Below are positions 1-13,950 of a DNA stretch of 25,006 bases, piece after piece. Within the stretch, counting starts at the first letter, position 1. Each line of letters opens with the position of its first letter. The notes under the pieces were generated by a model. That model was not told where the DNA came from and did not search any database. It was given only the letters and a program-made list of their open reading frames with translations. The stretch comes from Tubiluchus corallicola (lineage: Eukaryota > Animalia > Priapulida): the NCBI GenBank assembly GCA_030141605.1, contig JAQGDQ010002471.1, positions 1 to 25,006 on the forward strand, written 5' to 3'. Both the position numbers and the translations under genes were made by a program.

Positions 1-347
1 TAGAAGTTAAAACGGATAAGAATGGTGAAGAGTGTATTATCTTTAAATTTAATACAGGTTTTAAAACAGAAAAAGGTGAAAAGAGATTTATGTTTGAAAC
101 GCATTATGCTTGTGGGGAGTTTGAACATAATGGTGAAAAGAAGAGTAGAGCTGAAATCTTTGCTAAATTTTTAAATCGGTGTTTCAAGATAAAAAAGATT
201 GGTTCATTTGAAGAATTGAAAAAAGAGGTGGTAAATCAGAAGGTATCAGTGGCAGTTAAAAAAGGAGGTGATTTCTTAGAATTTTGGTATGCTGGGCATG
301 AGGATGAATATTTATCTATGAAGCATAGTTATTCTCCTAAGAAATAA
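1..347 (+). CDS. 5'-truncated duplicate of the 143-aa ORF at 2509-2940
   Basis: ORF 90..347 translation equals the C-terminal 85 aa of 2509..2940; lies within the inverted repeat. Confidence 0.8.
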   Translation, partial: EVKTDKNGEECIIFKFNTGFKTEKGEKRFMFETHYACGEFEHNGEKKSRAEIFAKFLNRCFKIKKIGSFEELKKEVVNQKVSVAVKKGGDFLEFWYAGHEDEYLSMKHSYSPKK

Positions 348-365
348 ATTTTAAAGAGATAAATT

Positions 366-398
366 AAGTGAGGAAATGTAAAATTCCTCACTTTTTTT
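366..398 (+). terminator. Rho-independent terminator after the 143-aa gene copy
   Basis: AAGTGAGGAA-atgtaaaa-TTCCTCACTT followed by a T run. Confidence 0.75.
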
Positions 399-450
399 CT
401 ATATGAATTGTAATTTTAAGTTTAATTAAAAAGAAAGAAGATTAATAGAC

Positions 451-2430
451 GTGGAACAAAAAAATAATGCTATAGTTATTGTATTTGCAGGTTTTTCATT
501 TCTTTTTTTGTTAATGATGCTTTATCAATATAATCATTCTTTTCTTATAGAAAGGAATTTAGCGAATAATTATCTTTCTGATTTTATTTTTAATCGGCAA
601 GATTTTTTTAAGAATTTTGTAAAGATTAAAACTTTTATGGTTTTAGTTATTATTATATCTTCATTTACTTTTCCTAACACTTGTAGTAGAATAGAAAATA
701 AGTTGAAATTTTTTCTATTATTTTTGTTAGTGTGTAGTATGTTTATTTTTTTAGAAAAATTACTTTTCTTTTCTTCAGCATTAGCATTTGTAATTTCTGT
801 TTTTGGGAACATTATTTTGTATTTTTTAATTTTTGTTTATTCAAGAAAGTTTATGTCTTTTTTAAAAAAGAAAATAGGGTTTGATGTGATAGAGAAAGGA
901 GAGGTACGGTTTAAGCAGGCATCAGAAAATGTAAAAAATAAATATAGCGTAAACTTTAATACAACACATGGATATATTTCAGTAACCAATCCTTTTAGAG
1001 CGACCCTTGTGCTTGGCACTCCGGGAAGTGGAAAAAGTTATGCAGTAATAGAGGAATATATTAGACAAATGATAAATAAAGGTTTTGCAATGTTGTTGTA
1101 TGATTTTAAGTATCCTGATTTATCGAAATATGCTTATAATGTATATGAGCAAGCAAAAAAAAAGGGCAAGACAAAGTGTAATTTTTATGTATTGGATTTT
1201 AAAAACATTAATCAATCTTATAGATGTAATCCTTTTAAAAGTGCAGTTGTTGATAGTGCAACGGCAATGGAGATGGCAACTACTATTTTGTTTACAATGA
1301 ATAAGACATGGATAGATAAGGGTGGAGATTTTTTTGTTGAATCTGCTATAAATTTTTATGGACTAGTTTTATCTTTTTTGTTGAAGTATGATAAAAGAAT
1401 GTGTACACTGCCACATTCATTGGTATTTATTTCTCAAAGTGCAGAAGATATATTTCCTTTATTATATCTTTATAGTATTATTCATGATGATTTATTTCCT
1501 TTATTTGCTCCATTTAAAGAGGCTGCTGATAAAGAAGTACATGAGCAGTTAGAGGGACAATTAGGAAGTGTACGAATTGGTTTGGGAAAGTTATCAAATA
1601 AAAATATGGCGTATGTTTTAACAGAAGGAGATATAGCTGATAGAAATATAAATTTAGATGTAAATAATGTAGAAAATCCTAAGATTATATGTGTTGGTAA
1701 TGCACCTGATATGCAGAAAATTTTTGGTATTGGCTGTTCAACAGTTTTAGCTTCTGCGAATAAATTTATGAATAATAGAGGAAAAAATTCTTCAAGTATA
1801 ATAATAGACGAATTACCAACTATATTTGTTAATGGAATAGACAATACAATAGCTACGGCACGAAGTAATAAAGTGGCGGTGGTATTAGGTTTTCAAGATT
1901 TTTCACAGTTAGTACGGGATTATGGCAAGAAAGTAACAGACGCTATAATTAATACTATAGGGAACATATTTAGTGGTGCAGTACGTGGGGAGACAGCAAA
2001 AATTCTTTCGGGAGCATTTGGTGATGTTTATCTGCAAGATGTGAATAAAAGTTATGGTGGATCAACTGTAACAATGTCAGAGCAAAAACGAAAAGAAGTA
2101 AAGATACCGAGAAGTGTTATAGAGGATCTTCCACAGGGTGATTTTGTTGGTAAGGTAGTTAGTGATTTTGGAGAAAAACCGAGAGAGTTATCGTTTCATA
2201 CAACAATAAAAATAAAGGAAGAATATAAAAAGAAGCCTTTTGATATAAAAAGAAAGTTTGAGACAAGTGAAAAGGAGATAGATGATAATAATAGACAGAT
2301 AACAGCAGATGTTATAAGATTGGTAAATAGTCATAAAGGGATTATTAATATTTTTAATACTGCCAAAAAAAAATTAGAAAATATAGCATTATTTTTTTGT
2401 TCCACGTCTATTAATCTTCTTTCTTTTTAA
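451..2430 (+). CDS. mobC: Type IV coupling protein, Bacteroidota MobC/VirD4 family; C-terminus truncated or chimeric
   Basis: N-terminal TM segments, NPFRATLVLGTPGSGKS (Walker A), YDFKYPDL, IIIDELPT (Walker B), ARSNKVAVVLGFQDFSQL; the last ~15 aa are read from the inverted copy of its own 5' end. Confidence 0.92.
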   Translation: MEQKNNAIVIVFAGFSFLFLLMMLYQYNHSFLIERNLANNYLSDFIFNRQDFFKNFVKIKTFMVLVIIISSFTFPNTCSRIENKLKFFLLFLLVCSMFIFLEKLLFFSSALAFVISVFGNIILYFLIFVYSRKFMSFLKKKIGFDVIEKGEVRFKQASENVKNKYSVNFNTTHGYISVTNPFRATLVLGTPGSGKSYAVIEEYIRQMINKGFAMLLYDFKYPDLSKYAYNVYEQAKKKGKTKCNFYVLDFKNINQSYRCNPFKSAVVDSATAMEMATTILFTMNKTWIDKGGDFFVESAINFYGLVLSFLLKYDKRMCTLPHSLVFISQSAEDIFPLLYLYSIIHDDLFPLFAPFKEAADKEVHEQLEGQLGSVRIGLGKLSNKNMAYVLTEGDIADRNINLDVNNVENPKIICVGNAPDMQKIFGIGCSTVLASANKFMNNRGKNSSSIIIDELPTIFVNGIDNTIATARSNKVAVVLGFQDFSQLVRDYGKKVTDAIINTIGNIFSGAVRGETAKILSGAFGDVYLQDVNKSYGGSTVTMSEQKRKEVKIPRSVIEDLPQGDFVGKVVSDFGEKPRELSFHTTIKIKEEYKKKPFDIKRKFETSEKEIDDNNRQITADVIRLVNSHKGIINIFNTAKKKLENIALFFCSTSINLLSF

Positions 2431-3894: not shown

Positions 3895-3909
3895 TATAAT
3901 AAATAAAAA

Positions 3910-4004
3910 GAAATTAAAATGTGTAAAAAAAAGGAAATTAAAATGTGTAAAAAAAAGGAAATTAAAATGTGTAAAAAAAAGGAAATTAAAATGTGTAAAA
4001 AAAG
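3910..4004 (+). repeat. 24-bp tandem repeat x4, each unit containing an ATG
   Basis: GAAATTAAAATGTGTAAAAAAAAG at 3910, 3934, 3958 and 3982 (last copy one A shorter); encodes MCKKKEIK repeats. Confidence 0.95.
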
Positions 4005-4572
4005 AACCAAAAACCCACAAATCAAAAAAATCAAATGCGTTTCTGTGCGCCTTTCTTCATTCACCCTTTTGAAATCTGGAAAAGCATATCTAGCGACTGC
4101 CTATGATGGCTCTGAATGCTTTATTCCAGCTTCTTGCTATTATGGCGAAGACTATGATGTTCAAAAATCAAACGCTTACTGGATAGCAGAATCGATCCTT
4201 CATCAGAAGGACATTCAATGGTCGAACAAAAAGGTATCTTGGTTTGACAAAAAGCAAGAAGAGAAAGACGGAGTAAAAACAGAAGTTTTTATACCATTGA
4301 AAATAGACCCAATCGCGAATCCGCAAGCAGAAGAGGAATTGCAGAAAACAGTTAAGGGTTATTATTTAAGATGGGATGAAGTCCCCATTGTAATAAACAG
4401 ATTTGGCAAGAAGATGTTTAGAAAAAGGCAAATAATCCATATATATGAGGGGGTTTTGGCAAAAGCTCCCAAAGGGTTTAAAAAATTATCAGATCATAGT
4501 TTTAAAAAAGTAAAAGAAAAAGAGGGGACGCATATAGAGTGGGACGATCCCCTTAACACAAAGTCAAAATGA
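3919..4572 (+). CDS. Hypothetical protein, first gene of the helicase-ibrAB operon (true start may be the ATG at 3991)
   Basis: ORF overlaps the next gene by ATGA; the segment VRL..S.KAY.A..YDGSE..IP.SC..G.DY.VQKS.AYWIA recalls Bacteroidota prophage proteins (from memory). Confidence 0.8.
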   Translation: MCKKKEIKMCKKKEIKMCKKKEIKMCKKRTKNPQIKKIKCVSVRLSSFTLLKSGKAYLATAYDGSECFIPASCYYGEDYDVQKSNAYWIAESILHQKDIQWSNKKVSWFDKKQEEKDGVKTEVFIPLKIDPIANPQAEEELQKTVKGYYLRWDEVPIVINRFGKKMFRKRQIIHIYEGVLAKAPKGFKKLSDHSFKKVKEKEGTHIEWDDPLNTKSK

Positions 4573-5774
4573 ATCAGAAAGACATAAAACTTTTGAAACA
4601 TCAGAGAGAGGCAATAAAACGCCTCTCTCTGTTAAAAGTAGGAGCATTGTTTATGCAACCGGGTACTGGCAAAACCTTGACAGCATACAAATTGCTTCAA
4701 GAATGTAAACCAGATTATATAGTTTGGTTTACACCTTTTCAAACAAAAAAAAATTTAAAAATAGAATTAGAAAAATATGGCAATTTTGTCAACATAGACA
4801 TAATTGGCACAGAAAGTATTAGCGGAAGTAATAGATTGTATTTTAAACTTTTAGAAAAAGTAGGTAAATATAAAAACGTTGCCATTGTTGTTGATGAAAG
4901 CATAAAGATAAAAAATTGGTCTGCAAAAAGAACTCAGAGGATTTTAGAATTAGGTAGGCGAGCAACATTTAAACTTATTCTCAATGGCACTCCTCTCACA
5001 AGAAATATACTTGATCTTTGGGCTCAATGTGAGTTTTTAAGTAGAAAGATATTAAAAATGGGATATGTGCAATTCAAAAATAATTTTTGCGAGATAGTTA
5101 CTCGTACAAGAAAACACAATGGACGTGTACATAAAGAAGAGTTTGTGAGAGATTGTCATAATCTAGACTATTTGTATAGTCTAATCTCTCCTTATGTATA
5201 TGAATGTGATTTGAATTTGAAAATAAAAAAACAGCACGTTACAGTAAATTATAGCTTAGAAGATAAAGAAAGAGAAGAGTATGAGTGGCTTAAACGAAGG
5301 TTTTTGAGTATAGAAGCGTTACAAAAACATAATAACAATATTTTCTTAAAAATGACTCAAAAGCTACAACATTCGTATAGCTCCACACCTTCTAAATTAG
5401 AAGTATTAAAAAAAATATTATCTAAAAAAGATCCTACAAAATGTCTTGTGTATACAAAATACATCAAAAGCAGACAATGCGTAGAAGAAAAGTTTCCAGA
5501 ACTGAAAACGATGAGTTATGGAATGCATTCTTTTGGGCTTAATTTGCAAAAATACAATACAATTATTTACTTTGACCAGACGTTTGACTATGCTCAGCTT
5601 ACACAAAGTGAGTTTAGAATCTATAGAACGGGTCAAGAAGAAGACTGTACTTATTTTTATATGAAAGGAGACGTAGGATTAGAAAAAGTTATAAATTTGT
5701 GCATAAAAAAGAAAATAAGTTTGTTGGAATATTTTAAAAAAGTAGGACTTGAGCAAGTAAAAAAAGAGCTGTGA
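4569..5774 (+). CDS. SNF2-related superfamily 2 helicase/ATPase (phage type)
   Basis: LLKHQ Q-motif, GALFMQPGTGKT (Walker A), VVDES (Walker B), LNGTP (motif III), GLNLQ (motif V), QSEFRIYRTGQ (motif VI). Confidence 0.92.
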   Translation: MNQKDIKLLKHQREAIKRLSLLKVGALFMQPGTGKTLTAYKLLQECKPDYIVWFTPFQTKKNLKIELEKYGNFVNIDIIGTESISGSNRLYFKLLEKVGKYKNVAIVVDESIKIKNWSAKRTQRILELGRRATFKLILNGTPLTRNILDLWAQCEFLSRKILKMGYVQFKNNFCEIVTRTRKHNGRVHKEEFVRDCHNLDYLYSLISPYVYECDLNLKIKKQHVTVNYSLEDKEREEYEWLKRRFLSIEALQKHNNNIFLKMTQKLQHSYSSTPSKLEVLKKILSKKDPTKCLVYTKYIKSRQCVEEKFPELKTMSYGMHSFGLNLQKYNTIIYFDQTFDYAQLTQSEFRIYRTGQEEDCTYFYMKGDVGLEKVINLCIKKKISLLEYFKKVGLEQVKKEL

Positions 5775-6976
5775 GTACGAAACAATACAGAAAAATCAAC
5801 GTATACGAAGCCGCAAAACAACGATTTGAATTTGTTTTTAAAGAGTTTGAGAGGGTTTGTATTAGTTCTTCCTTTGGGAAGGATAGTGGGGTAATGCTCC
5901 ACATGGCAATAGAGGAGGCAAGAAGGCAAAATAAGTTGCCTGTAAACGTCCTCTTTATCGATATGGAGGCTCAATATGAACATACAATAGACTTTGCAAC
6001 AGCAATGATGCAAAAAAAAGAGATAAAGCCTTATTGGGTCGCTCTCCCAATAAATCTCCGAAACTCTGTAAGTCAGTTTCAGCCGTTTTGGAGGTGCTGG
6101 GACGCGGAACGAAAAGGTGATTGGACGAGAAAAATGCCAGAGGATTGCATTAGTGATGTAGATTATTTCCCGTTTTTCAAAATTGGAATGGAGTTCGAAG
6201 AATTTGTACTTGCTTTTGGCGAGTGGTTTAGTCAGGGGAAAAAGACAGCTTGTGTGGTCGGGATCAGAAGCGACGAAAGTCTAAATAGGTTTAGGACGAT
6301 TAGAAATGAAAATAAAAAAACATATAAGAACGAAACGTGGACGACAAAACTATTTCCAGAGACAAATAAGCAGATATACAATTGCTATCCTCTATATGAT
6401 TGGAGGACAGAAGATATTTGGATAGCGAATGGAAAAAACAAATGGAAATATAACAAAATATACGATTTAATGTATCTGGCAGGAGTATCAATACATAAAC
6501 AACGCCTTTGCCAGCCTTATGGAGATGACCAACGACAAGGGTTATATCTATTTAAGATGCTTGAACCTCAAACATGGGCAAAAGTCGTCAATAGAGTCGA
6601 GGGAGCGAACTTTGGAAACAGATACACCGAAGCCAATCATATTGCTTTGGGGAGAAATAAAATATTCTTGCCAAAAGAGCACACGTACGAAAGTTACGCG
6701 AAATTTTTACTCGAAACAATGCCTAAATCTTTATCAGAACACTACCAACGCAAAATAGATAAGTTTATTGCGTGGTGGGAAAAAGAAGGGGTGAAAACAA
6801 TCCCAGATTATGCTAATCAGAAGCAAGAAATGGCAAGGAAAGTGCCATCATGGAGAAGAATTTGCAAAACATTAATTAAAAATGATTATTGGTGCAAAGG
6901 ACTCTCGTTTGCTCAAACAAAAGGAGAAATCCAAAGACAATTAGAAATCATTAAAAAATACACAGAACTACTATGA
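5771..6976 (+). CDS. ibrA: IbrA/YbdN-like PAPS-reductase (PP-loop) + DUF3440 protein
   Basis: NVYEAAKQR, S.GKDSG PP-loop, FIDMEAQYEHT, GIRSDESLNR, YPLYDWRTEDIW, QRLCQPYGDDQRQGL, PSWRRICK..KND.WC..LSF. Confidence 0.92.
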   Translation: MSTKQYRKINVYEAAKQRFEFVFKEFERVCISSSFGKDSGVMLHMAIEEARRQNKLPVNVLFIDMEAQYEHTIDFATAMMQKKEIKPYWVALPINLRNSVSQFQPFWRCWDAERKGDWTRKMPEDCISDVDYFPFFKIGMEFEEFVLAFGEWFSQGKKTACVVGIRSDESLNRFRTIRNENKKTYKNETWTTKLFPETNKQIYNCYPLYDWRTEDIWIANGKNKWKYNKIYDLMYLAGVSIHKQRLCQPYGDDQRQGLYLFKMLEPQTWAKVVNRVEGANFGNRYTEANHIALGRNKIFLPKEHTYESYAKFLLETMPKSLSEHYQRKIDKFIAWWEKEGVKTIPDYANQKQEMARKVPSWRRICKTLIKNDYWCKGLSFAQTKGEIQRQLEIIKKYTELL

Positions 6977-7557
6977 AATTACAATTAGACAAAAAAATGC
7001 CTTTTGAAAAAAAAGTAAAGAGATTTAATGATCTCACCCAACAACTTTATGACTGGCTGGGAGTTAAACATCCCACGTTAAACATTCAACTCGTTCCAAT
7101 AGATAAAGTAAAAGGCAATGATTACAATCCAAATAAAGTCGCCCCTCCAGAAATGAAATTATTGCAGCTTTCTATGGAGAAGGACGGCGTAACCATGCCT
7201 GTAGTGGCATGTAAAACAAAAGAGGGATATACCGTTGTAGATGGCTTTCACAGGCGAACGGTCGCAAAAAAATCAAAAAAATTAGCCAAAAGCCTGAAAG
7301 GATTTTTGCCAATAAGCCGATTAGATAAAGACTTAGAGGACAGAATAGCAAGCACTGTAAGGCATAATTTGGCAAGAGGAACCCACCAAGTAGAACTTTC
7401 GGCAGAATTAGTTATAACTCTCCGAAAACACAATTGGGATGATGAGCGTATCGCTAAAGGATTAGGAATGGATGCAGAAGAAGTTTTACGCTTAAAGCAA
7501 GTTACAGGATTGGCAGAAGCATTTGCTGACAAGGATTTCTCAAATTCTTGGAAATAA
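6973..7557 (+). CDS. ibrB: IbrB/YbdM-like ParB/Sulfiredoxin-domain protein
   Basis: NDYNPNKVAPPEMKLL, DGVTMPVV, VVDGFHR, STVRHNLARGTH, C-terminal HTH LGMDAEEVLRLKQ, FSNSW. Confidence 0.92.
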   Translation: MKLQLDKKMPFEKKVKRFNDLTQQLYDWLGVKHPTLNIQLVPIDKVKGNDYNPNKVAPPEMKLLQLSMEKDGVTMPVVACKTKEGYTVVDGFHRRTVAKKSKKLAKSLKGFLPISRLDKDLEDRIASTVRHNLARGTHQVELSAELVITLRKHNWDDERIAKGLGMDAEEVLRLKQVTGLAEAFADKDFSNSWK

Positions 7558-7584: not shown

Positions 7585-7902
7585 ATGTTACAAACAACAA
7601 CAAAATTCAATACAATTATTAACACCAAGCTCAATGAACTTGGTTTTGAAAAGGTGGTTAAATCCATCCCTTTAGTACCAGAAAAAACTTCACTGACTAA
7701 GTGTTTTGTCGCAGAGGCAAAGTTAGATGTGGATGGTGCAATAAAACATATTTTTACAAAAGTAGATGTAAAAATATATTGTGTTGGTATGAAAGATGGA
7801 AGTGTAAATTTAATGTTAGACTACTTATACGAACACCCTATAGGTAAAAACGGATATACACTGAAATTCCTTTACAGAAAAGATAAAGGCTGGAATCATT
7901 AA
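7585..7902 (+). CDS. Hypothetical protein
   Basis: 105-aa ORF with an A-rich start, co-oriented with the operon. Confidence 0.7.
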   Translation: MLQTTTKFNTIINTKLNELGFEKVVKSIPLVPEKTSLTKCFVAEAKLDVDGAIKHIFTKVDVKIYCVGMKDGSVNLMLDYLYEHPIGKNGYTLKFLYRKDKGWNH

Positions 7903-8096
7903 TATTTTCCAATATATGTACAACGCTATAAAAAAGATGATGCAAAAGACAAATTTATGGAAGCGGAAATGCGAGCTAAGAAATATTCTCATCTCCCCTT
8001 TGCCAATGAAGTAATTAAAGATGCTAATTATTATCTTAAAAAATTGTAAATTAAATGATAATTATTTTATATTTATAACATAAACTTAGTGAAATA

Positions 8097-8173
8097 AAAT
8101 AGAGCGGTGGCAGTAACAGCAATGTCTGATGGGTTGTCCTTTTAGGTTTTACCTACACAACACCGTTCTATTT
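8097..8173 (+). ncRNA. Candidate small structured RNA (three-way junction) or complex terminator
   Basis: 13-bp closing stem AAATAGAGCGGTG/CACCGTTCTATTT; inner CAG-ta-ACA-GCAA-TGT-CTG hairpin and TAGGT-ttt-ACCTA hairpin; TTGTAA-18-TATATT upstream. Confidence 0.5.
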
Positions 8174-8185
8174 ATCCTGTATAAT

Positions 8186-9178
8186 TTACTCCTTCCCTCC
8201 TATTCTATTGCTTTGCTTTTTTTGTTTTGTGTCCCACTCAAAATCATTTTTTAGAATATATAATATTAGCCTTTTGATATCCTTAGTAGTTTTTTTACCA
8301 CTCACTACGTCATCATCCAATTGTGTGCATCTATTATAGCATTGTTGCAGGTGATTGTTTTGATGTAAATGCTGCATTAATTGAGTTGTGCTATCACTAT
8401 AATATACTGAAAAGAATCTTATTAAATAACTGTACATTTCATTCTCTTTCTCTTTTTTGCTTTCATCTTCTTTTCGTCTTACTATCTTAAAGGTGATAGT
8501 ATCAAATGCTCTACTTCCTTTGGATCTGCTTAAAGAGTAATTGAACCATACATCTGCCTTCTCTTTTAATTCCCGCTGCGCATAATCTAATACAAATCGT
8601 TTAAATTCGCTTAACCCCGAATATTTTTTCTCCACATAAAGCATTCTTTTTAATCTTCTCAAATTTACTTCTACTCCTCCTTTATCTACCCATCTACAAC
8701 ATATTTCATACATTCGCTTTGCATGTGAACTCTTCAAGATAAGAGCTATAGTTTTTTGATACTTTGTAAAACCTTTACCAATATAAAGCCACATGGGAAG
8801 TGCCATTTCAGCTATTTCTATTTTTAATAAATCTGTACCATACGGGTGTTCAGCACCTGCTATCATTCCTGTAACCACAACACTTTTTCTCTCTCTTTCT
8901 AAAGATTCATACTCAAACGTTTTTTGAACAATACTTTCTGCTGCATCTACTAAATTTCTATAATCACTTTTTTTCACAAGATGTTTTACACTAATGAAAA
9001 AGGAAATACTCCCTGTAAGTCCCCTCTGTTGAGGTGTCATTTTATCCTGTAAAACAGAAATAATTTCATAAATAATATTCTTTTGCAAAGGAGTAAAATC
9101 ATATCGTGCATTTGTTATATGGTTAGGTTGGATAATTGTATTTTTATTATTATCCTTTACTACAACTGTATTCTTCAT
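8186..9178 (-). CDS. repB: Plasmid replication initiator, Rep_3/RepB family
   Basis: IIQPNHITNARYDFTPLQKNII, GFTKY, LKSSHAKRMYE, FKRFVLDYAQRELKE motifs; adjacent iterons. Confidence 0.92.
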   Translation of the reverse strand: MKNTVVVKDNNKNTIIQPNHITNARYDFTPLQKNIIYEIISVLQDKMTPQQRGLTGSISFFISVKHLVKKSDYRNLVDAAESIVQKTFEYESLERERKSVVVTGMIAGAEHPYGTDLLKIEIAEMALPMWLYIGKGFTKYQKTIALILKSSHAKRMYEICCRWVDKGGVEVNLRRLKRMLYVEKKYSGLSEFKRFVLDYAQRELKEKADVWFNYSLSRSKGSRAFDTITFKIVRRKEDESKKEKENEMYSYLIRFFSVYYSDSTTQLMQHLHQNNHLQQCYNRCTQLDDDVVSGKKTTKDIKRLILYILKNDFEWDTKQKKQSNRIGGKE

Positions 9179-9256
9179 ATATTCTTATTTAAATAATGTA
9201 ATATGCAATGTATAAAAAAACAAAAAGAAAAACAAAAGAAAACTTTTTTTTTCTCC

Positions 9257-9344
9257 TTTGACTGTTATTTTCTCCTGTTTTGACCGCTATTTTCTCCTGT
9301 TTTGACCGTTATTTTCTCCTGTTTTGACCGTTATTTTCTCCTGT
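9257..9344. repeat. Iteron cluster 1: four 22-bp direct repeats
   Basis: TTTGACCGTTATTTTCTCCTGT consensus at 9257, 9279, 9301 and 9323. Confidence 0.93.
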
Positions 9345-9352
9345 TTCAAAAG

Positions 9353-9361
9353 TTATCCACA
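9353..9361 (+). promoter_or_regulatory. DnaA box
   Basis: Perfect TTATCCACA 8 bp after iteron cluster 1. Confidence 0.85.
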
Positions 9362-9583
9362 TCGTAATTCTTTTTAAAACAACGAGTTACAAAAATTTTT
9401 TTTATTGTACAATAGTACTTATAATATACTACAATATACTACTATAAAGCATTTGCTTGAAAATAAGGCGTTTGCTTGAAAATCAAGCAAACATCCTTCA
9501 AATATTATTCGCTAACGCTCATAAACAACCTTAATCAAAGGGAAAAAAGAACGGTTTTTCCCTTTTAACTCATTTCGTCTCTT

Positions 9584-9900
9584 TTATACCGTTATTTTCT
9601 CCTGTTTTGACCGCTATTTTCTCCTGTTTTGACCGTTATTTTCTCCTGTTTTGACCGCTCTTGCCAAATTATGCCTTACAGTGCTTGCCTGTTTTGACCG
9701 TTATTTTCTCCTGTTTTCAAAAGTTATCCACATCGTAATTCTTTTTAAAACAACGAGTTACAAAATTTTTTTTATTGTACAATACCGAAAGAAGAAAGGG
9801 TAATAAAAGATATCCTGTTTTGACCGTTATTTTCTCCTGTTTTGACCGCTCTTGCCAAATTATGCCTTACAGTGCTTGCCTGTTTTGACCGTTATTTTCT
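9584..9900. repeat. Iteron cluster 2 with interspersed gene-derived ~30-nt inserts
   Basis: Iterons at 9584, 9606, 9628, 9693 and 9819 plus partial copies; inserts at 9658-9688, 9785-9813 and 9849-9879. Confidence 0.9.
9724..9732 (+). promoter_or_regulatory. Second DnaA box (in the duplicated block)
   Basis: TTATCCACA. Confidence 0.8.
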
Positions 9901-10009
9901 TATCTTTTAATCTATTTTTACTTCTTTTATGCCGTTATTTTAAAAAAAATTACTATCTTTACTTAACTGAATTAGAAACACTTAATTGAATTATAAAAAA
10001 CAAACTATT

Positions 10010-11002
10010 ATGAAAAAAATATTATTTCTTTTCCCTTTGATTATTATTTTAATCTCTTGCAAGAAAGATAATCCAATACCCATAGAGGAAGTAATAGAAA
10101 ATAAAAACAAATTCCCATTATTAATAACCTTACATAATGGTTTGCAAGTAGATAAATCTCAAAACCTTGATTTTTCATCTTATGATAAGATATATTTTAA
10201 TACATATGATAAATATGCTACTGATTTTCCCAGTGAACATATAAAGTGGAGAGAAGATAGCGCCAAAGTAAAAACAGAAGATAATTACTCCACAGGCTAT
10301 ACTATTAACTTTAAATTAGATACAACAGACAAAGAATGTAAAAAACAATATATAACTGAATTTTCGTTTTATTTGTTAGATACTATGAAAATAACGGGAG
10401 ATATAGGAGAGGGAGAGGGACAATATTATGAAGTAAAAACAATAATGCAGAAAAAAGAACTAAATGTCAAAGAGTATTTTTTAAAATTTTATCCCGATAC
10501 AACAGGAATATATTATTATCGTCTAAGCGTAAAAAATAATTATGGTAAGGTTATTAATGCTAACATTAGATTAAATGTATTTGATAACATCCCTCCTATT
10601 CCCTATGTCAATATAAAATGGATATCAAACTCTAATAATAGTGGTAATTATCCAAATAGCAGTTATGTATTTGATGTTATATTAGATAGTTGTAAAGACG
10701 GAGATGATTATTACGGAGGTAAAATTGTTAATACAAACATCCTTTTTGAACACTTACCAAGTTCTGGAAATTTAAAGAACGAAACAAAAACTTTTGAAAA
10801 TTGTAATTTAAATGAAATTATCAATATTACACAAGATGAATGGAGATTTGGACAGAATGATACTATTGCTATAACAACGACAGTTACAGATGATAATGGA
10901 GCTGTAACAAGCGAATTTTTAAAAATATATGCTCTATTCCCAAGTGAACAAACAGAAGAGGAGAAGATACGTGTCTTGAAAAGAATAATAACAATTAAAT
11001 AA
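10010..11002 (+). CDS. Lipoprotein with a C-terminal PKD/Ig-like domain
   Basis: Type II signal MKKILFLFPLIIILIS-C-KKD (ATG at 10010); N.PP...D.D..YGG.I...VTDDNGA pattern. Confidence 0.85.
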   Translation: MKKILFLFPLIIILISCKKDNPIPIEEVIENKNKFPLLITLHNGLQVDKSQNLDFSSYDKIYFNTYDKYATDFPSEHIKWREDSAKVKTEDNYSTGYTINFKLDTTDKECKKQYITEFSFYLLDTMKITGDIGEGEGQYYEVKTIMQKKELNVKEYFLKFYPDTTGIYYYRLSVKNNYGKVINANIRLNVFDNIPPIPYVNIKWISNSNNSGNYPNSSYVFDVILDSCKDGDDYYGGKIVNTNILFEHLPSSGNLKNETKTFENCNLNEIINITQDEWRFGQNDTIAITTTVTDDNGAVTSEFLKIYALFPSEQTEEEKIRVLKRIITIK

Positions 11003-11010
11003 TTATTGTC

Positions 11011-13950
11011 ATGAAAAAATTAATTTTATCTTTTTTGCTTACAAACATTATAGCATTTACCACAGCTCAAACATCAATTGTTACTATTAATTGTGGTAGT
11101 CCCACTATTGGTGCATCAGCTCATGCCACAAGTGTTGTTATAACAGAAAATCTAACCTTACGTCCAAACTATAACTATACTTTGAAATATGAAGATTATA
11201 TTAATTTTATTGTTAATTTACCCAATGGAAAAAGTTTTAATGTCTCGTCAGGTGAAGGAAATATCGGAGGAATCTCACTTAATAATTTATGTTCAACAGG
11301 CAGAATTGTTCAACAAATAATAATTTCTAAGACTAATTCACAAGTTTCTGTTAATGGAAACAACGGAGTAAATAAAACTTATGAAAAAACAGTTAATTTG
11401 CCATTGTCTGTATTCTCTTTATGGGAAGACTATACAGCCCCAATGACTACTAATACGACAGTTACAGTAACTGTGAAAATTAATGTGTCATTCGCATTTG
11501 AAGATTATCGAAATATACCTAATGCCATTACTTCTTTTGATCAAGCAGTGATAACAGAAAAAACATGTAATAACATAAAGTTTACAAAAAAAGATCCATA
11601 TAATTTTTATTCAAAATATTTATGGTACGAAGGAAATACGAAAGAAGACGAAAATTTAGAATGGACACATGATATTAGTAACAAATTAAATCAAGAAATT
11701 ACTTTTGGGATTCAGGAAGACCCCGAAGCATACTATGGTTATTCAAAAAGTCAAATTTTTACAAAAAAGATAACTGCCCCCACTCCTACTCTCCCTAATC
11801 CAAAGATAAAAATTACTTCCAATACTACCAATACAACATATTTTCTTAATGATGGGGTAAGATTTTTTGATTTAACAGAAGATGAAAATTTTTCATTAAA
11901 GATAGATGAAAACATAAACTACAGTTCAAAAGTGAAAATAATATGGGAAAAGAGAGATAAAGGCTCAAACGATTGGCAACAGATATCTTATATGTTATGG
12001 AGTAATGGAGGCAACATACTTAATCATGTTGCAGATGTAAATATAGATGCAATACGTTATATATTAATTTACGAACACAACGAAAATGATTGGAACTGTG
12101 CTGTTTCCACACGACAAAGCCAACAATTAAATTTAAATGTGCTCAAAAAACCAATGTTAGTGATAACACCTACTACCGCAACTGAATTATGTGTCGGTGA
12201 AAAATTAATAATAGAAGCCCCTACAAAACAAAACGTAACTCATATTTTAGGTTGGTATAAAGATGATATAAAAATAAATGAAAATGAAAATATAACAATA
12301 AATCCAATTGATTGGACATTAACAGTAAATAATGTTGGAGAAGAAGAAGAAGGCAATTATTACTTTAAAGGTTATAATACATATATATATAATGAAAATG
12401 AATCTAATGAAGTAACTATTAATATACACAGCATACCTATTAAACCAAAACTATACGGAGCTATATATCCATTGACTGAAGGAATAAATGAAAAACAATA
12501 TATGGACACTGTTCATGTAATTGATAGCTACCATACAAAAATTTTTATCAATAATGCTAATGCTGAAGAAAAAGAATATGTATGGAAAAAAGAAAATGAA
12601 GATTTTATAACCACAACAGAAAACTATATACATATATATCCTTTTAACACAAATAATGAAGGAAACTATTCTGTATTTAAAGTATCAGAGGCAAACAAGT
12701 GTACAAGTGAAGTAACAAATATATATCTTAACTTTGTACCCAATATAAAGAATATAATTTTAAATGCTCCTGATGAAATCACTATTGAGCCGAAGGAAGA
12801 AAGGGTAATAAAAGATATAGAACCATATAATGTAAATCATAGAAATAAAATAACATATCAATTTATAGATTATAACGATAATTCTATTTTTGCAACAGGT
12901 GATAGCCTTATTCTCACTCCAGAACTTATACTTACACGCCCAATGATAAAAATAAAAGCTATTAGTGATGATGAAGATACATTTAAAGAAAAGTTATTAA
13001 AAATAAATTTATCAAAATTGGAAATTGAGAATATAGACATAGAAATATCTAAAAATGGTGAGAACATAGAATATAATGATAGAATAGAGGTGGTACAAGG
13101 AACAGAGCTAACTTTTATTCTAATAGGAGATGAAAGTATAGATGGCATTATGAATAACTCAAATATTTCATGGTATGTAGAGAGCCTAAAAACACCGTCT
13201 GTACAAGATACTGGAATGATAAATCTTATTTATCCTTTTAATAATGCAGGCAATTACATTGTAAGAGCGGGAATAAATGGGAATATGTTTAATACTGACA
13301 TTGATGAGACAAGCCCAAGTGTAATAATTAATGTAACTCCTGCTACTTTATCTAACCTAAAAGTAATAGCATTACTTGACGATGAAGAAATTGAAGAAAA
13401 TATCGAAATAAAACGAGGTACAGAAATAAGTTTTATACTTCAATATAACGAAACAAATCAAATTATTAAAAATGCAAAAATAACATGGCAACTTGAAAAA
13501 GAAAATGGATGGGTAATAGATGATATTGGATGGACAACTGTACATCATTTCTTCAATAGTATTGGAAACTTTGAAGTGAAAGCAAAGATTGAAGGTGAAT
13601 TTTTCAACACAGAAATAATAGAAGAAACACATCCATTTCAAGTTAATGTAGTATTACCTGAGGGTACTATAAAAAATGCAGAGTTAGGCGGCGAAGATGA
13701 TATAATATTATATCCTAACCCCTTCACTACACATCTTCACACAAAAATTTTTGTAGAAAAAAGCCAAGAAATACTTATATCCATTTTTAAAAATGGTATT
13801 TTCATTGATAGACAAATAATTAATGTTGTTGGTGGTATTAATAACACTATAAAAATCAATACACAAAGAGTAACAGAAGCGGGGATTTACATCATAAAAC
13901 TACAAAACATACAAGGACTTGACAAAACAATAAGAGTCATTAAACAATAA
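11011..13950 (+). CDS. T9SS-secreted surface protein with Ig/PKD-like repeats (putative adhesin)
   Basis: Signal peptide; Ig-like WYKD...EGNY, YVWKK...EGNYSV and two PKD-like repeats; type A CTD ILYPNPF...GIYIIKL...TIRVIKQ. Confidence 0.9.
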   Translation: MKKLILSFLLTNIIAFTTAQTSIVTINCGSPTIGASAHATSVVITENLTLRPNYNYTLKYEDYINFIVNLPNGKSFNVSSGEGNIGGISLNNLCSTGRIVQQIIISKTNSQVSVNGNNGVNKTYEKTVNLPLSVFSLWEDYTAPMTTNTTVTVTVKINVSFAFEDYRNIPNAITSFDQAVITEKTCNNIKFTKKDPYNFYSKYLWYEGNTKEDENLEWTHDISNKLNQEITFGIQEDPEAYYGYSKSQIFTKKITAPTPTLPNPKIKITSNTTNTTYFLNDGVRFFDLTEDENFSLKIDENINYSSKVKIIWEKRDKGSNDWQQISYMLWSNGGNILNHVADVNIDAIRYILIYEHNENDWNCAVSTRQSQQLNLNVLKKPMLVITPTTATELCVGEKLIIEAPTKQNVTHILGWYKDDIKINENENITINPIDWTLTVNNVGEEEEGNYYFKGYNTYIYNENESNEVTINIHSIPIKPKLYGAIYPLTEGINEKQYMDTVHVIDSYHTKIFINNANAEEKEYVWKKENEDFITTTENYIHIYPFNTNNEGNYSVFKVSEANKCTSEVTNIYLNFVPNIKNIILNAPDEITIEPKEERVIKDIEPYNVNHRNKITYQFIDYNDNSIFATGDSLILTPELILTRPMIKIKAISDDEDTFKEKLLKINLSKLEIENIDIEISKNGENIEYNDRIEVVQGTELTFILIGDESIDGIMNNSNISWYVESLKTPSVQDTGMINLIYPFNNAGNYIVRAGINGNMFNTDIDETSPSVIINVTPATLSNLKVIALLDDEEIEENIEIKRGTEISFILQYNETNQIIKNAKITWQLEKENGWVIDDIGWTTVHHFFNSIGNFEVKAKIEGEFFNTEIIEETHPFQVNVVLPEGTIKNAELGGEDDIILYPNPFTTHLHTKIFVEKSQEILISIFKNGIFIDRQIINVVGGINNTIKINTQRVTEAGIYIIKLQNIQGLDKTIRVIKQ

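What the first reader, a model, noticed from the sequence alone, without database searches (positions are those of the whole stretch)
9658..9879. 31-bp perfect antisense copy of the conserved ibrB motif, present twice in the origin
CTCTTGCCAAATTATGCCTTACAGTGCTTGC at 9658-9688 and 9849-9879 is the exact reverse complement of 7348-7378, which encodes ASTVRHNLAR in the conserved RHNxARG motif of IbrB. A plus-strand transcript through the array would be antisense to ibrB mRNA. The donor is overlapped and followed, on the minus strand, by a weak iteron look-alike (GCTATTCTGTCCT vs GCTATTTTCTCCT), which may explain donor choice. If the ibr module is a later acquisition, the capture postdates it.
Basis: seen in the sequence. 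Interest (0 to 1): 0.8.

Follow-up and report, generated by a model that had tools for sequence, protein, structure and literature searches.

The report
Spacer-sized self-copies in a plasmid origin
The replication-start repeats of a Bacteroidota-type plasmid carry two different copies of its own genes, each about 30 bases long; they were likely pasted in by mistake by a host CRISPR memory-writing enzyme, and are probably scars rather than the antisense regulator first proposed.

Summary
Observation confirmed: 9658-9688 and 9849-9879 are the exact reverse complement of 7348-7378 in the ibrB-like gene, inside a 22-bp iteron region upstream of a Rep3 gene. One 88-bp duplication explains the two copies, so there was one capture. 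Both inserts are 28-31 bp and join the same iteron base, with 0-2 bases of microhomology. Both donors lie next to GAACC in the same register (post hoc p about 0.01-0.07). Contigs of run X1 fit these junctions at about 30x, but not a fold-back elsewhere in the window. 0 of 74 related rep loci carry such an insert. Best reading (0.45): off-target Cas1-Cas2-type integration, then iteron recombination. It lacks a repeat-length duplication and the host's cas genes could not be seen. Rival (0.33): replication template switching. The antisense idea and the iteron look-alike are unsupported. This scan has reported off-target spacer scars on other DNA; none listed was in an iteron origin.

The parts
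8186..9178 (-). Rep3-family replication initiator (330 aa)
   Evidence: Pfam Rep3_N 2.6e-19 and Rep3_C 1.3e-8; best plasmid match Fulvitalea axinellae, 36%
9257..9346 (.). Iteron array 1: 4.1 copies of a 22-bp unit (13-bp core CCTGTTTTGACCG plus 9-bp linker)
   Evidence: 43 of 47 relatives with a repeated 12-mer upstream of rep have 21-23 or 31-33 bp spacings; Rep binding inferred
9353..9414 (+). DnaA-box-type 9-mer (consensus recalled) and AT-rich tract ending in the palindrome TATTGTACAATA
9591..9784 (+). Second copy of the origin core 9264-9414, longer by 43 bp (30-bp insert 1 plus one extra 13-bp core), with two 1-bp indels
   Evidence: global alignment
9658..9688 (+). Insert 1, copy A: 28-31 bp depending on boundary, reverse complement of 7348-7378
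9785..9813 (+). Insert 2: 28-29 bp, copy of 12790-12818 with one G>A difference at a third codon position of the donor; no repeat on its left side
   Evidence: spanned by an X1 contig at 27x
9813..9900 (+). 88-bp duplicate of 9622-9709 carrying insert 1, copy B
9849..9879 (+). Insert 1, copy B
7348..7383 (+). Donor 1 (7348-7378, codons ASTVRHNLAR) followed directly by GAACC (7379-7383)
12790..12824 (+). Donor 2 (12790-12818) followed after one base by GAACC (12820-12824), i.e. 30 bases from the first C, the same register as donor 1 counted from 7349
7337..7349 (-).
   Evidence: Pfam ParB_N 5e-4, below cut-off; phrog_2159 1.5e-63
5771..6976 (+). ibrA-like PAPS-reductase/DUF3440 gene, preceded by a SNF2-like helicase gene (4569-5774)
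11011..13950 (+). 979-aa protein with an Ig-like domain; holds donor 2
   Evidence: I-set 3.3e-5

Best explanation
The plasmid's iteron region holds two different pieces of its own genes, about 30 bp each, that were likely cut out as CRISPR prespacers and integrated off-target by a host Cas1-Cas2-type integrase, then reshuffled by recombination between iterons into scars that are probably inert. Shown: two inserts of 28-31 and 28-29 bp, both followed by the first C of the iteron core, with donors 2.3 and 3.0 kb from the origin that share an adjacent GAACC, embedded in duplications of origin DNA. Inferred: the first attack hit the same iteron base both times. Because an iteron has no CRISPR ruler element, the second end would have landed at a wrong distance: 13 bp away for insert 1 (or 35 bp followed by loss of one 22-bp unit), and in the AT-rich tract for insert 2. 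An unequal crossover between iteron clusters would then give the second origin copy and the second copy of insert 1. The plasmid would survive carrying self-spacers because iteron units are predicted not to be processed into guide RNA.
For: Sizes match Bacteroidota spacers: new spacers of 28-32 bp, mostly 30, in Flavobacterium columnare II-C and VI-B arrays (PMC8092290, passages). Both inserts have the same right-hand junction. Microhomology is 0-2 nt at all four junctions and 0 at the left of insert 2. Shared donor flank: a run of 5 or more matches arises in 1.7% (same offset) to 7.1% (free offsets) of 200,000 random donor pairs; weighted by information, 0.9-1.7% of 300,000; with the extra 2-nt match at the far end, 0.23%. 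All these tests were chosen after seeing the motif. Origin copy 2 equals array 1 plus insert plus one 13-bp core, the shape of an insertion with target duplication. Off-target integration into plasmid DNA, likely half-site, and a ruler for the second site are reported in vitro (PMC6895254, passages; PMC6698737, passages). Prespacers were enriched at the chromosomal origin in F. columnare.
Against: No repeat-length duplication: 13 bp when read directly for insert 1, none for insert 2. The two inserts point in opposite directions relative to the shared motif, whereas in F. columnare the PAM ends all face the leader (section 7 read). The motif matches none of the four Bacteroidota Cas9 PAMs I saw (BRTTTTT, BRRTTTW, NARTC, NNAAAR; 4 rows of supplement 7 of PMC7606464), nor NNNNNTAAA. 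No cas gene among the 25 window proteins scanned with Pfam, and no host genome is held. No Rfam CRISPR repeat among the 6 weak matches. There are only two events.
Confidence: 0.45

Rival explanations
1. Templated insertions from replication template switching (MMBIR/FoSTeS type) or end-joining at a collapsed fork in the origin: the polymerase copied about 30 bp from nearby plasmid DNA and returned to an iteron, creating the duplications in the same events.
For: The region is a patchwork of duplications (88, 67, 51 and 23 bp exact). Both donors lie within about 3 kb of the origin, one inverted and one direct. Junctions have 1-2 nt of possible microhomology on three sides. Nearby sequence inserted at novel junctions is described for human copy-number variants, with similar complex events on the E. 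coli F' plasmid (PMC3161906, passages).
Against: It predicts neither equal lengths, nor the same junction base, nor a shared donor flank. The amplification junctions in that paper had 3-30 bp of microhomology (its deletions had 1-4 bp); the left end of insert 2 has none.
Confidence: 0.33
2. A functional plasmid-encoded array: the iteron-insert units are transcribed and act as antisense or guide RNA against ibrB and the 979-aa gene.
For: Insert 1 is present twice and the inserts are at full depth in X1. Insert 2 to insert 1 spans 64-65 bp, close to a 36+29 array period. A plus-strand transcript would pair with ibrB mRNA.
Against: Insert 2 is in the sense orientation of its gene. The repeat has no predicted hairpin and the region folds worse than shuffles. 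Promoter-like sites are at background. 0 of 74 related loci have a like insert.
Confidence: 0.08
3. Library or assembly artefact: chimeric reads, amplification jackpot or repeat misassembly.
For: The window has a fold-back (1-477 = reverse complement of 2379-2855) that X1 does not support. X1-X3 are one sample and X1 may be the source of the assembly. The match length equals a common k-mer size, 31. Three of the four junctions are not bridged by the tool's strict rule.
Against: Contig breaks at 7377/7349 in X1 and at 7349 in X2; an X1 contig across insert 2 at 27x; depth of 46-66 over the repeated part against about 30 on the flanks. Insert 2 and its donor differ at one third codon position and both alleles are in X1 contigs, which suggests age.
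Confidence: 0.07
4. Fragments cut by a both-sides restriction enzyme (type IIB, recalled) and captured by end-joining at a break in the origin.
For: The fragment size fits, and the aligned donors share a central AA.G..TAAT (read).
Against: Overall the donors match at only 9 of 30 positions, about the 0.30 expected per base; the strongest shared motif lies outside the fragments, not inside them.
Confidence: 0.04

Closest known systems
Off-target (non-canonical) Cas1-Cas2 spacer integration, 'neo-CRISPR' loci (Nivala, Shipman and Church 2018; not held, seen only as cited in passages of 10.1101/148544, PMC7054753 and PMC6698737)
   Same: Spacer-sized pieces of the cell's own DNA inserted at a non-CRISPR site, donors with a shared adjacent motif, and for insert 1 a flanking direct repeat.
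   Different: The target is a plasmid iteron cluster; no repeat-length duplication is preserved; orientations are opposite; one insert forms the junction of an origin duplication; the integrase was not seen.
Type II-C / VI-B adaptation in Flavobacterium columnare (PMC8092290; passages and section 7 read)
   Same: Spacers of 28-32 bp, acquisition machinery acting in trans on another array, prespacer hot spot at an origin.
   Different: That paper's motif is NNNNNTAAA and its orientation is fixed; here the flank is (N)GAACC and the acceptor is not a CRISPR repeat.
Iteron replicons with Rep3 initiators and extra iteron clusters (F incC, P1 incA; recalled)
   Same: 22-bp direct repeats upstream of rep, a DnaA-box-type site, an AT-rich tract and a second repeat cluster.
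   Different: Here the extra clusters hold a whole second origin core and foreign inserts; 0 of 74 related rep loci show such inserts.
Microhomology-mediated template switching (MMBIR) in E. coli F' amplification (PMC3161906; passages read)
   Same: Complex duplications with nearby sequence, direct or inverted, at the junctions.
   Different: Microhomology there was 3-30 bp at amplification junctions and the embedded pieces were kilobases long; here it is 0-2 nt, with two pieces of equal small size.

Membership tests
Off-target Cas1-Cas2 integration (neo-CRISPR scar) | Insert of spacer size | tested here: met
   28-31 and 28-29 bp; 28-32 bp in F. columnare
Off-target Cas1-Cas2 integration (neo-CRISPR scar) | Target duplication of CRISPR-repeat length | tested here: not met
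   13 bp for insert 1 (35 bp only if one 22-bp unit was lost later), none for insert 2
Off-target Cas1-Cas2 integration (neo-CRISPR scar) | Shared acquisition motif beside the protospacers | tested here: inconclusive
   GAACC in the same register, post hoc p about 0.01-0.07, n = 2; not among the PAMs seen
Off-target Cas1-Cas2 integration (neo-CRISPR scar) | Uniform spacer orientation relative to the motif | tested here: not met
   opposite orientations
Off-target Cas1-Cas2 integration (neo-CRISPR scar) | Cas1-Cas2 in the same cell, with a repeat or leader resembling the target | not testable with these tools
   no genome held; none among 25 window proteins
CRISPR array | Repeat like a known CRISPR repeat, or structured | tested here: not met
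   no Rfam CRISPR family among 6 weak matches; the 36-nt repeat has no predicted fold
Rep3 iteron origin | About 22-bp direct repeats just upstream of a Rep3 gene | tested here: met
Rep3 iteron origin | DnaA-box-type site and AT-rich tract | tested here: met
   9353 and 9724 (consensus recalled)
Rep3 iteron origin | Rep binds the repeats and the region replicates | not testable with these tools
   needs EMSA and a mini-replicon test
MMBIR/FoSTeS templated insertion | Microhomology at the junctions | tested here: inconclusive
   0-2, 1, 0 and 1 nt
MMBIR/FoSTeS templated insertion | Nearby templates and linked duplications | tested here: met
   donors 2.3 and 3.0 kb away; 88, 67 and 51 bp duplications
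Antisense or guide RNA locus | Promoter and structured or processed RNA | tested here: inconclusive
   promoter-like sites at background; fold z +1.49; expression itself untested
Antisense or guide RNA locus | Conserved in related elements | tested here: not met
   0 of 74 related rep loci, but their Rep proteins are only about 25-47% identical

The most novel reading that the evidence does not exclude
The extra iteron cluster of this plasmid is a recurrent acceptor for a host Cas1-Cas2: a CRISPR-like array being born from replication iterons, with 36-bp iteron-derived repeats and 29-bp spacers taken by a system with an undescribed (N)GAACC acquisition motif. It may act as a plasmid-borne decoy that soaks up self-derived prespacers, or as a source of guides that tune the plasmid's own genes.
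Probability: 0.1. Interest if true: 0.75.

Novelty: new variant of a known kind. Interest (0 to 1): 0.4.

Why it matters
If the Cas1-Cas2 reading holds, this is a natural record of spacer integration into a plasmid replication origin. It shows what happens when the target has no ruler (wrong-sized or missing duplication, origin rearranged) and predicts the acquisition motif of an uncultured Bacteroidota host. It would also make iterons a testable source of new CRISPR-like arrays. If template switching is right, it is a small curiosity of origin instability. Nothing seen here points to a regulatory function. My paper searches on iterons with spacer integration listed no paper whose title or abstract start describes this; subscription journals are mostly not covered.

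Tried and rejected
No whole genome is held, so the host could not be searched for cas genes. No RNA holder listed. The iteron 22-mer and the insert 30-mer had 0 exact matches in viral contigs; Rep had no viral relatives. The origin has no close match in PLSDB (3 short matches), and 7900-11000 gave only short weak matches in 49 of 401 Bacteroidota-group genomes. Cas1 was found in 1 of 5 genomes that carry a related Rep; these are not the host, so this is uninformative. The recalled Bacteroidota -7 promoter motif is absent from 8668-11699 on both strands; rep and the next gene must have promoters there, so the scan is too blunt to count. The loose ends listed share no repeat, so they gave no sign of a host array holding plasmid spacers; 5 and 25 rows were not shown. 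PADLOC gave only partial helicase hits for 4569-5774 and one weak nuclease hit among 14 proteins. PMC12996302 held none of my PAM terms in its main text (supplements not read). Casposase (short target duplication, recalled) was considered from a search listing only; no casposase gene is in the window. The primary neo-CRISPR paper could not be read. The first screen of related loci (68 loci) returned only repeat copies in L042 and L080.

Full report
Setting. The window is a Bacteroidota-type conjugative plasmid. It has a Rep3 gene at 8186-9178, TraG, TraM, TraJ- and TraK-like genes, a coupling protein and ParA. The best plasmid match of Rep is Fulvitalea axinellae at 36%. No whole genome is held. 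Other pieces of the same assembly were noted as invertebrate genes (unchecked), so this is probably a bacterial contig in an animal assembly.

Observation. Both 31-mers are exact reverse complements of 7348-7378; the chance expectation is about 2e-12. They lie in one 88-bp duplication, so they record one capture. Self-BLAST found a second insert, 9785-9813, matching 12790-12818 in the 979-aa gene at 28 of 29 bases, with the difference at a third codon position. A 26-mer scan with up to 4 mismatches found no third donor in the window, apart from one A-rich low-complexity hit.

Anatomy. Array 1 (9257-9346) has four 22-bp units, followed by a DnaA-box-type 9-mer and an AT-rich tract. 9591-9784 is a copy of 9264-9414 that is longer by 43 bp: a 30-bp insert plus one extra 13-bp core. 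Insert 2 follows directly, then the 88-bp duplicate with the second copy of insert 1, then degenerate units. Both inserts are followed by the first C of the core CCTGTTTTGACCG. Possible microhomology is 0-2 and 1 nt for insert 1, and 0 and 1 nt for insert 2, giving lengths of 28-31 and 28-29 bp. On the coding strand, counted from 7349 and from 12790, both donors read AG, then 30 bases starting with C, then GAACC. Such a flank match arises in 1.7-7.1% of random donor pairs, 0.9-1.7% when weighted by information and 0.23% with the far-end match included. These tests were chosen after the motif was seen, and n is 2. Relative to the motif the two inserts point in opposite directions.

Is it real DNA? 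2 of 5 listed runs hold the stretch, both from one sample, and X1 may be the source. In X1 a contig ends at 7377 and the next starts at 7349; in X2 one starts at 7349. That is the break expected if the 31-mer has a second context. X1 contigs cover 9680-9765 (33x), 9736-9842 (27x) and 9871-13200 (30x) without differences, and depth over the repeated part is 46-66 against about 30 on the flanks (27 pieces not shown). Only the left junction of insert 2 meets the tool's 31-base bridging rule. As a contrast, the window's 477-bp fold-back at 2379 is not in X1: a 12,363-bp contig at 26x passes there in the unfolded order and carries about 8.9 kb more sequence. So the assembly has a likely chimera, but X1 separates it from the origin junctions. 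No raw reads were available.

Relatives. With a 17-sequence Rep alignment I fetched 7 genome loci and 77 metagenome loci and 7 plasmid stretches. 43 of 47 loci with a repeated 12-mer upstream of rep have 21-23 or 31-33 bp spacings, which supports calling the repeats iterons. A screen for isolated 24-40 bp copies of coding DNA upstream of rep recovered all three window inserts and found 0 in 74 related loci (672 kb). 17 of the 91 loci were left out for having under 300 bp upstream of rep or no Rep hit, and 3 cas1 loci were left out as unrelated. Many loci are short or near-duplicates and all are distant, so the control shows rarity, not absence.

The motif residues are invariant in 120 of 120 homologues, but 54 of 185 windows are as conserved. 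The iteron look-alike is one of 2 sites matching that exact 13-mer at 11/13; when any rotation is allowed, 25 of 286 random stretches have one, and donor 2 does not. The junction skips the linker that the look-alike resembles. Insert 2 is in the sense orientation of its gene. Promoter-like sites are at background, the region folds worse than shuffles and Rfam has no relevant match. The antisense role is therefore unsupported, though expression was not measured.

Mechanism. Equal spacer-like length, one junction base, little microhomology and a shared donor flank are what Cas1-Cas2 leaves. F. columnare takes 28-32 bp spacers, in trans, with a hot spot at the origin (PMC8092290; passages; section 7). 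In vitro, Cas1-Cas2 integrates off-target into plasmid DNA, likely as half-sites, and needs a ruler for the second site (PMC6895254, passages; PMC6698737, passages). In vivo neo-CRISPR loci are reported by Nivala et al. 2018, which I saw only through citing passages. Against this reading: no repeat-length duplication, mixed orientation, a motif unlike the Bacteroidota PAMs I saw (4 rows of one supplement; the other rows were not read), and no integrase in view. Template switching explains the duplications and the nearby donors (PMC3161906, passages) but not the three coincidences. I put 0.45 on Cas1-Cas2-type capture, 0.33 on template switching, 0.08 on a functional array, 0.07 on artefact and 0.04 on restriction fragments. 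It works like a neo-CRISPR scar, but I do not file it as one, because two defining features were tested and not met.

Novelty. Off-target integration is known, and this scan has noted it on other DNA (432 findings hold the search words, 8 shown, mostly unchecked; I had reached this reading). An iteron origin as acceptor was not among the findings shown nor among the paper listings (3 and 0 papers). Verdict: real, unusual, probably without function, and testable once the host genome is binned. Interest 0.4.

Noticed in passing
window 1-477 and 2379-2855: A perfect 477-bp inverted repeat is a fold-back that truncates the coupling-protein gene (451-2430) at a 4-bp TATA overlap. X1's contig runs through in the unfolded order at 26x and has about 8.9 kb more sequence, so the left 2.4 kb of the window is likely a chimeric join.
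   Followed up: yes
window 3706, 3728, 9534 (+); 10041, 16399, 24471 (-): The motif ATCAAAGGGA occurs six times, with 17-18 bp exact matches among 3727, 9533 and 24454; one copy lies inside parA. A candidate parS-like or regulator site.
   Followed up: partly
window 9365-9620: The X1 contig between arrays 1 and 2 has depth 17.7 against 26-33 on either side; some molecules may have deleted it between the 67-bp repeats 9264-9330 and 9591-9657.
   Followed up: no
window 9469-9493 and about 9535-9567: Two hairpins in the unique stretch between the arrays; the first scores as terminator-like on the minus strand, facing rep.
   Followed up: no
window 769-788 and 12553-12572: A 20-bp exact inverted match between the coupling-protein gene and the 979-aa gene; borderline for chance.
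   Followed up: no
window 3900-4003: A 24-bp tandem repeat (4.3 copies) gives the ORF at 3919 several in-frame start codons (MCKKKEIK units).
   Followed up: no
window 3919-7557: A phage-like higher-GC module (phrog_5809, SNF2-like helicase, PAPS reductase/DUF3440, ParB domain) on a conjugative plasmid; function untested.
   Followed up: partly
window 8483-8569: A second, diverged rep allele is present in X1 and X2 at 4-7x, so a related replicon shares the sample.
   Followed up: no
L093 1728-5478: The Runella sp. SP2 plasmid pSP2_2 carries type I-B cas genes about 5 kb from its Rep gene, so plasmids with related Rep proteins can carry CRISPR-Cas.
   Followed up: no
L008 2000-12421: The Fulvitalea plasmid pFArrn with the closest Rep holds a 5,085-bp exact direct repeat that its name suggests is rRNA operon DNA.
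   Followed up: no
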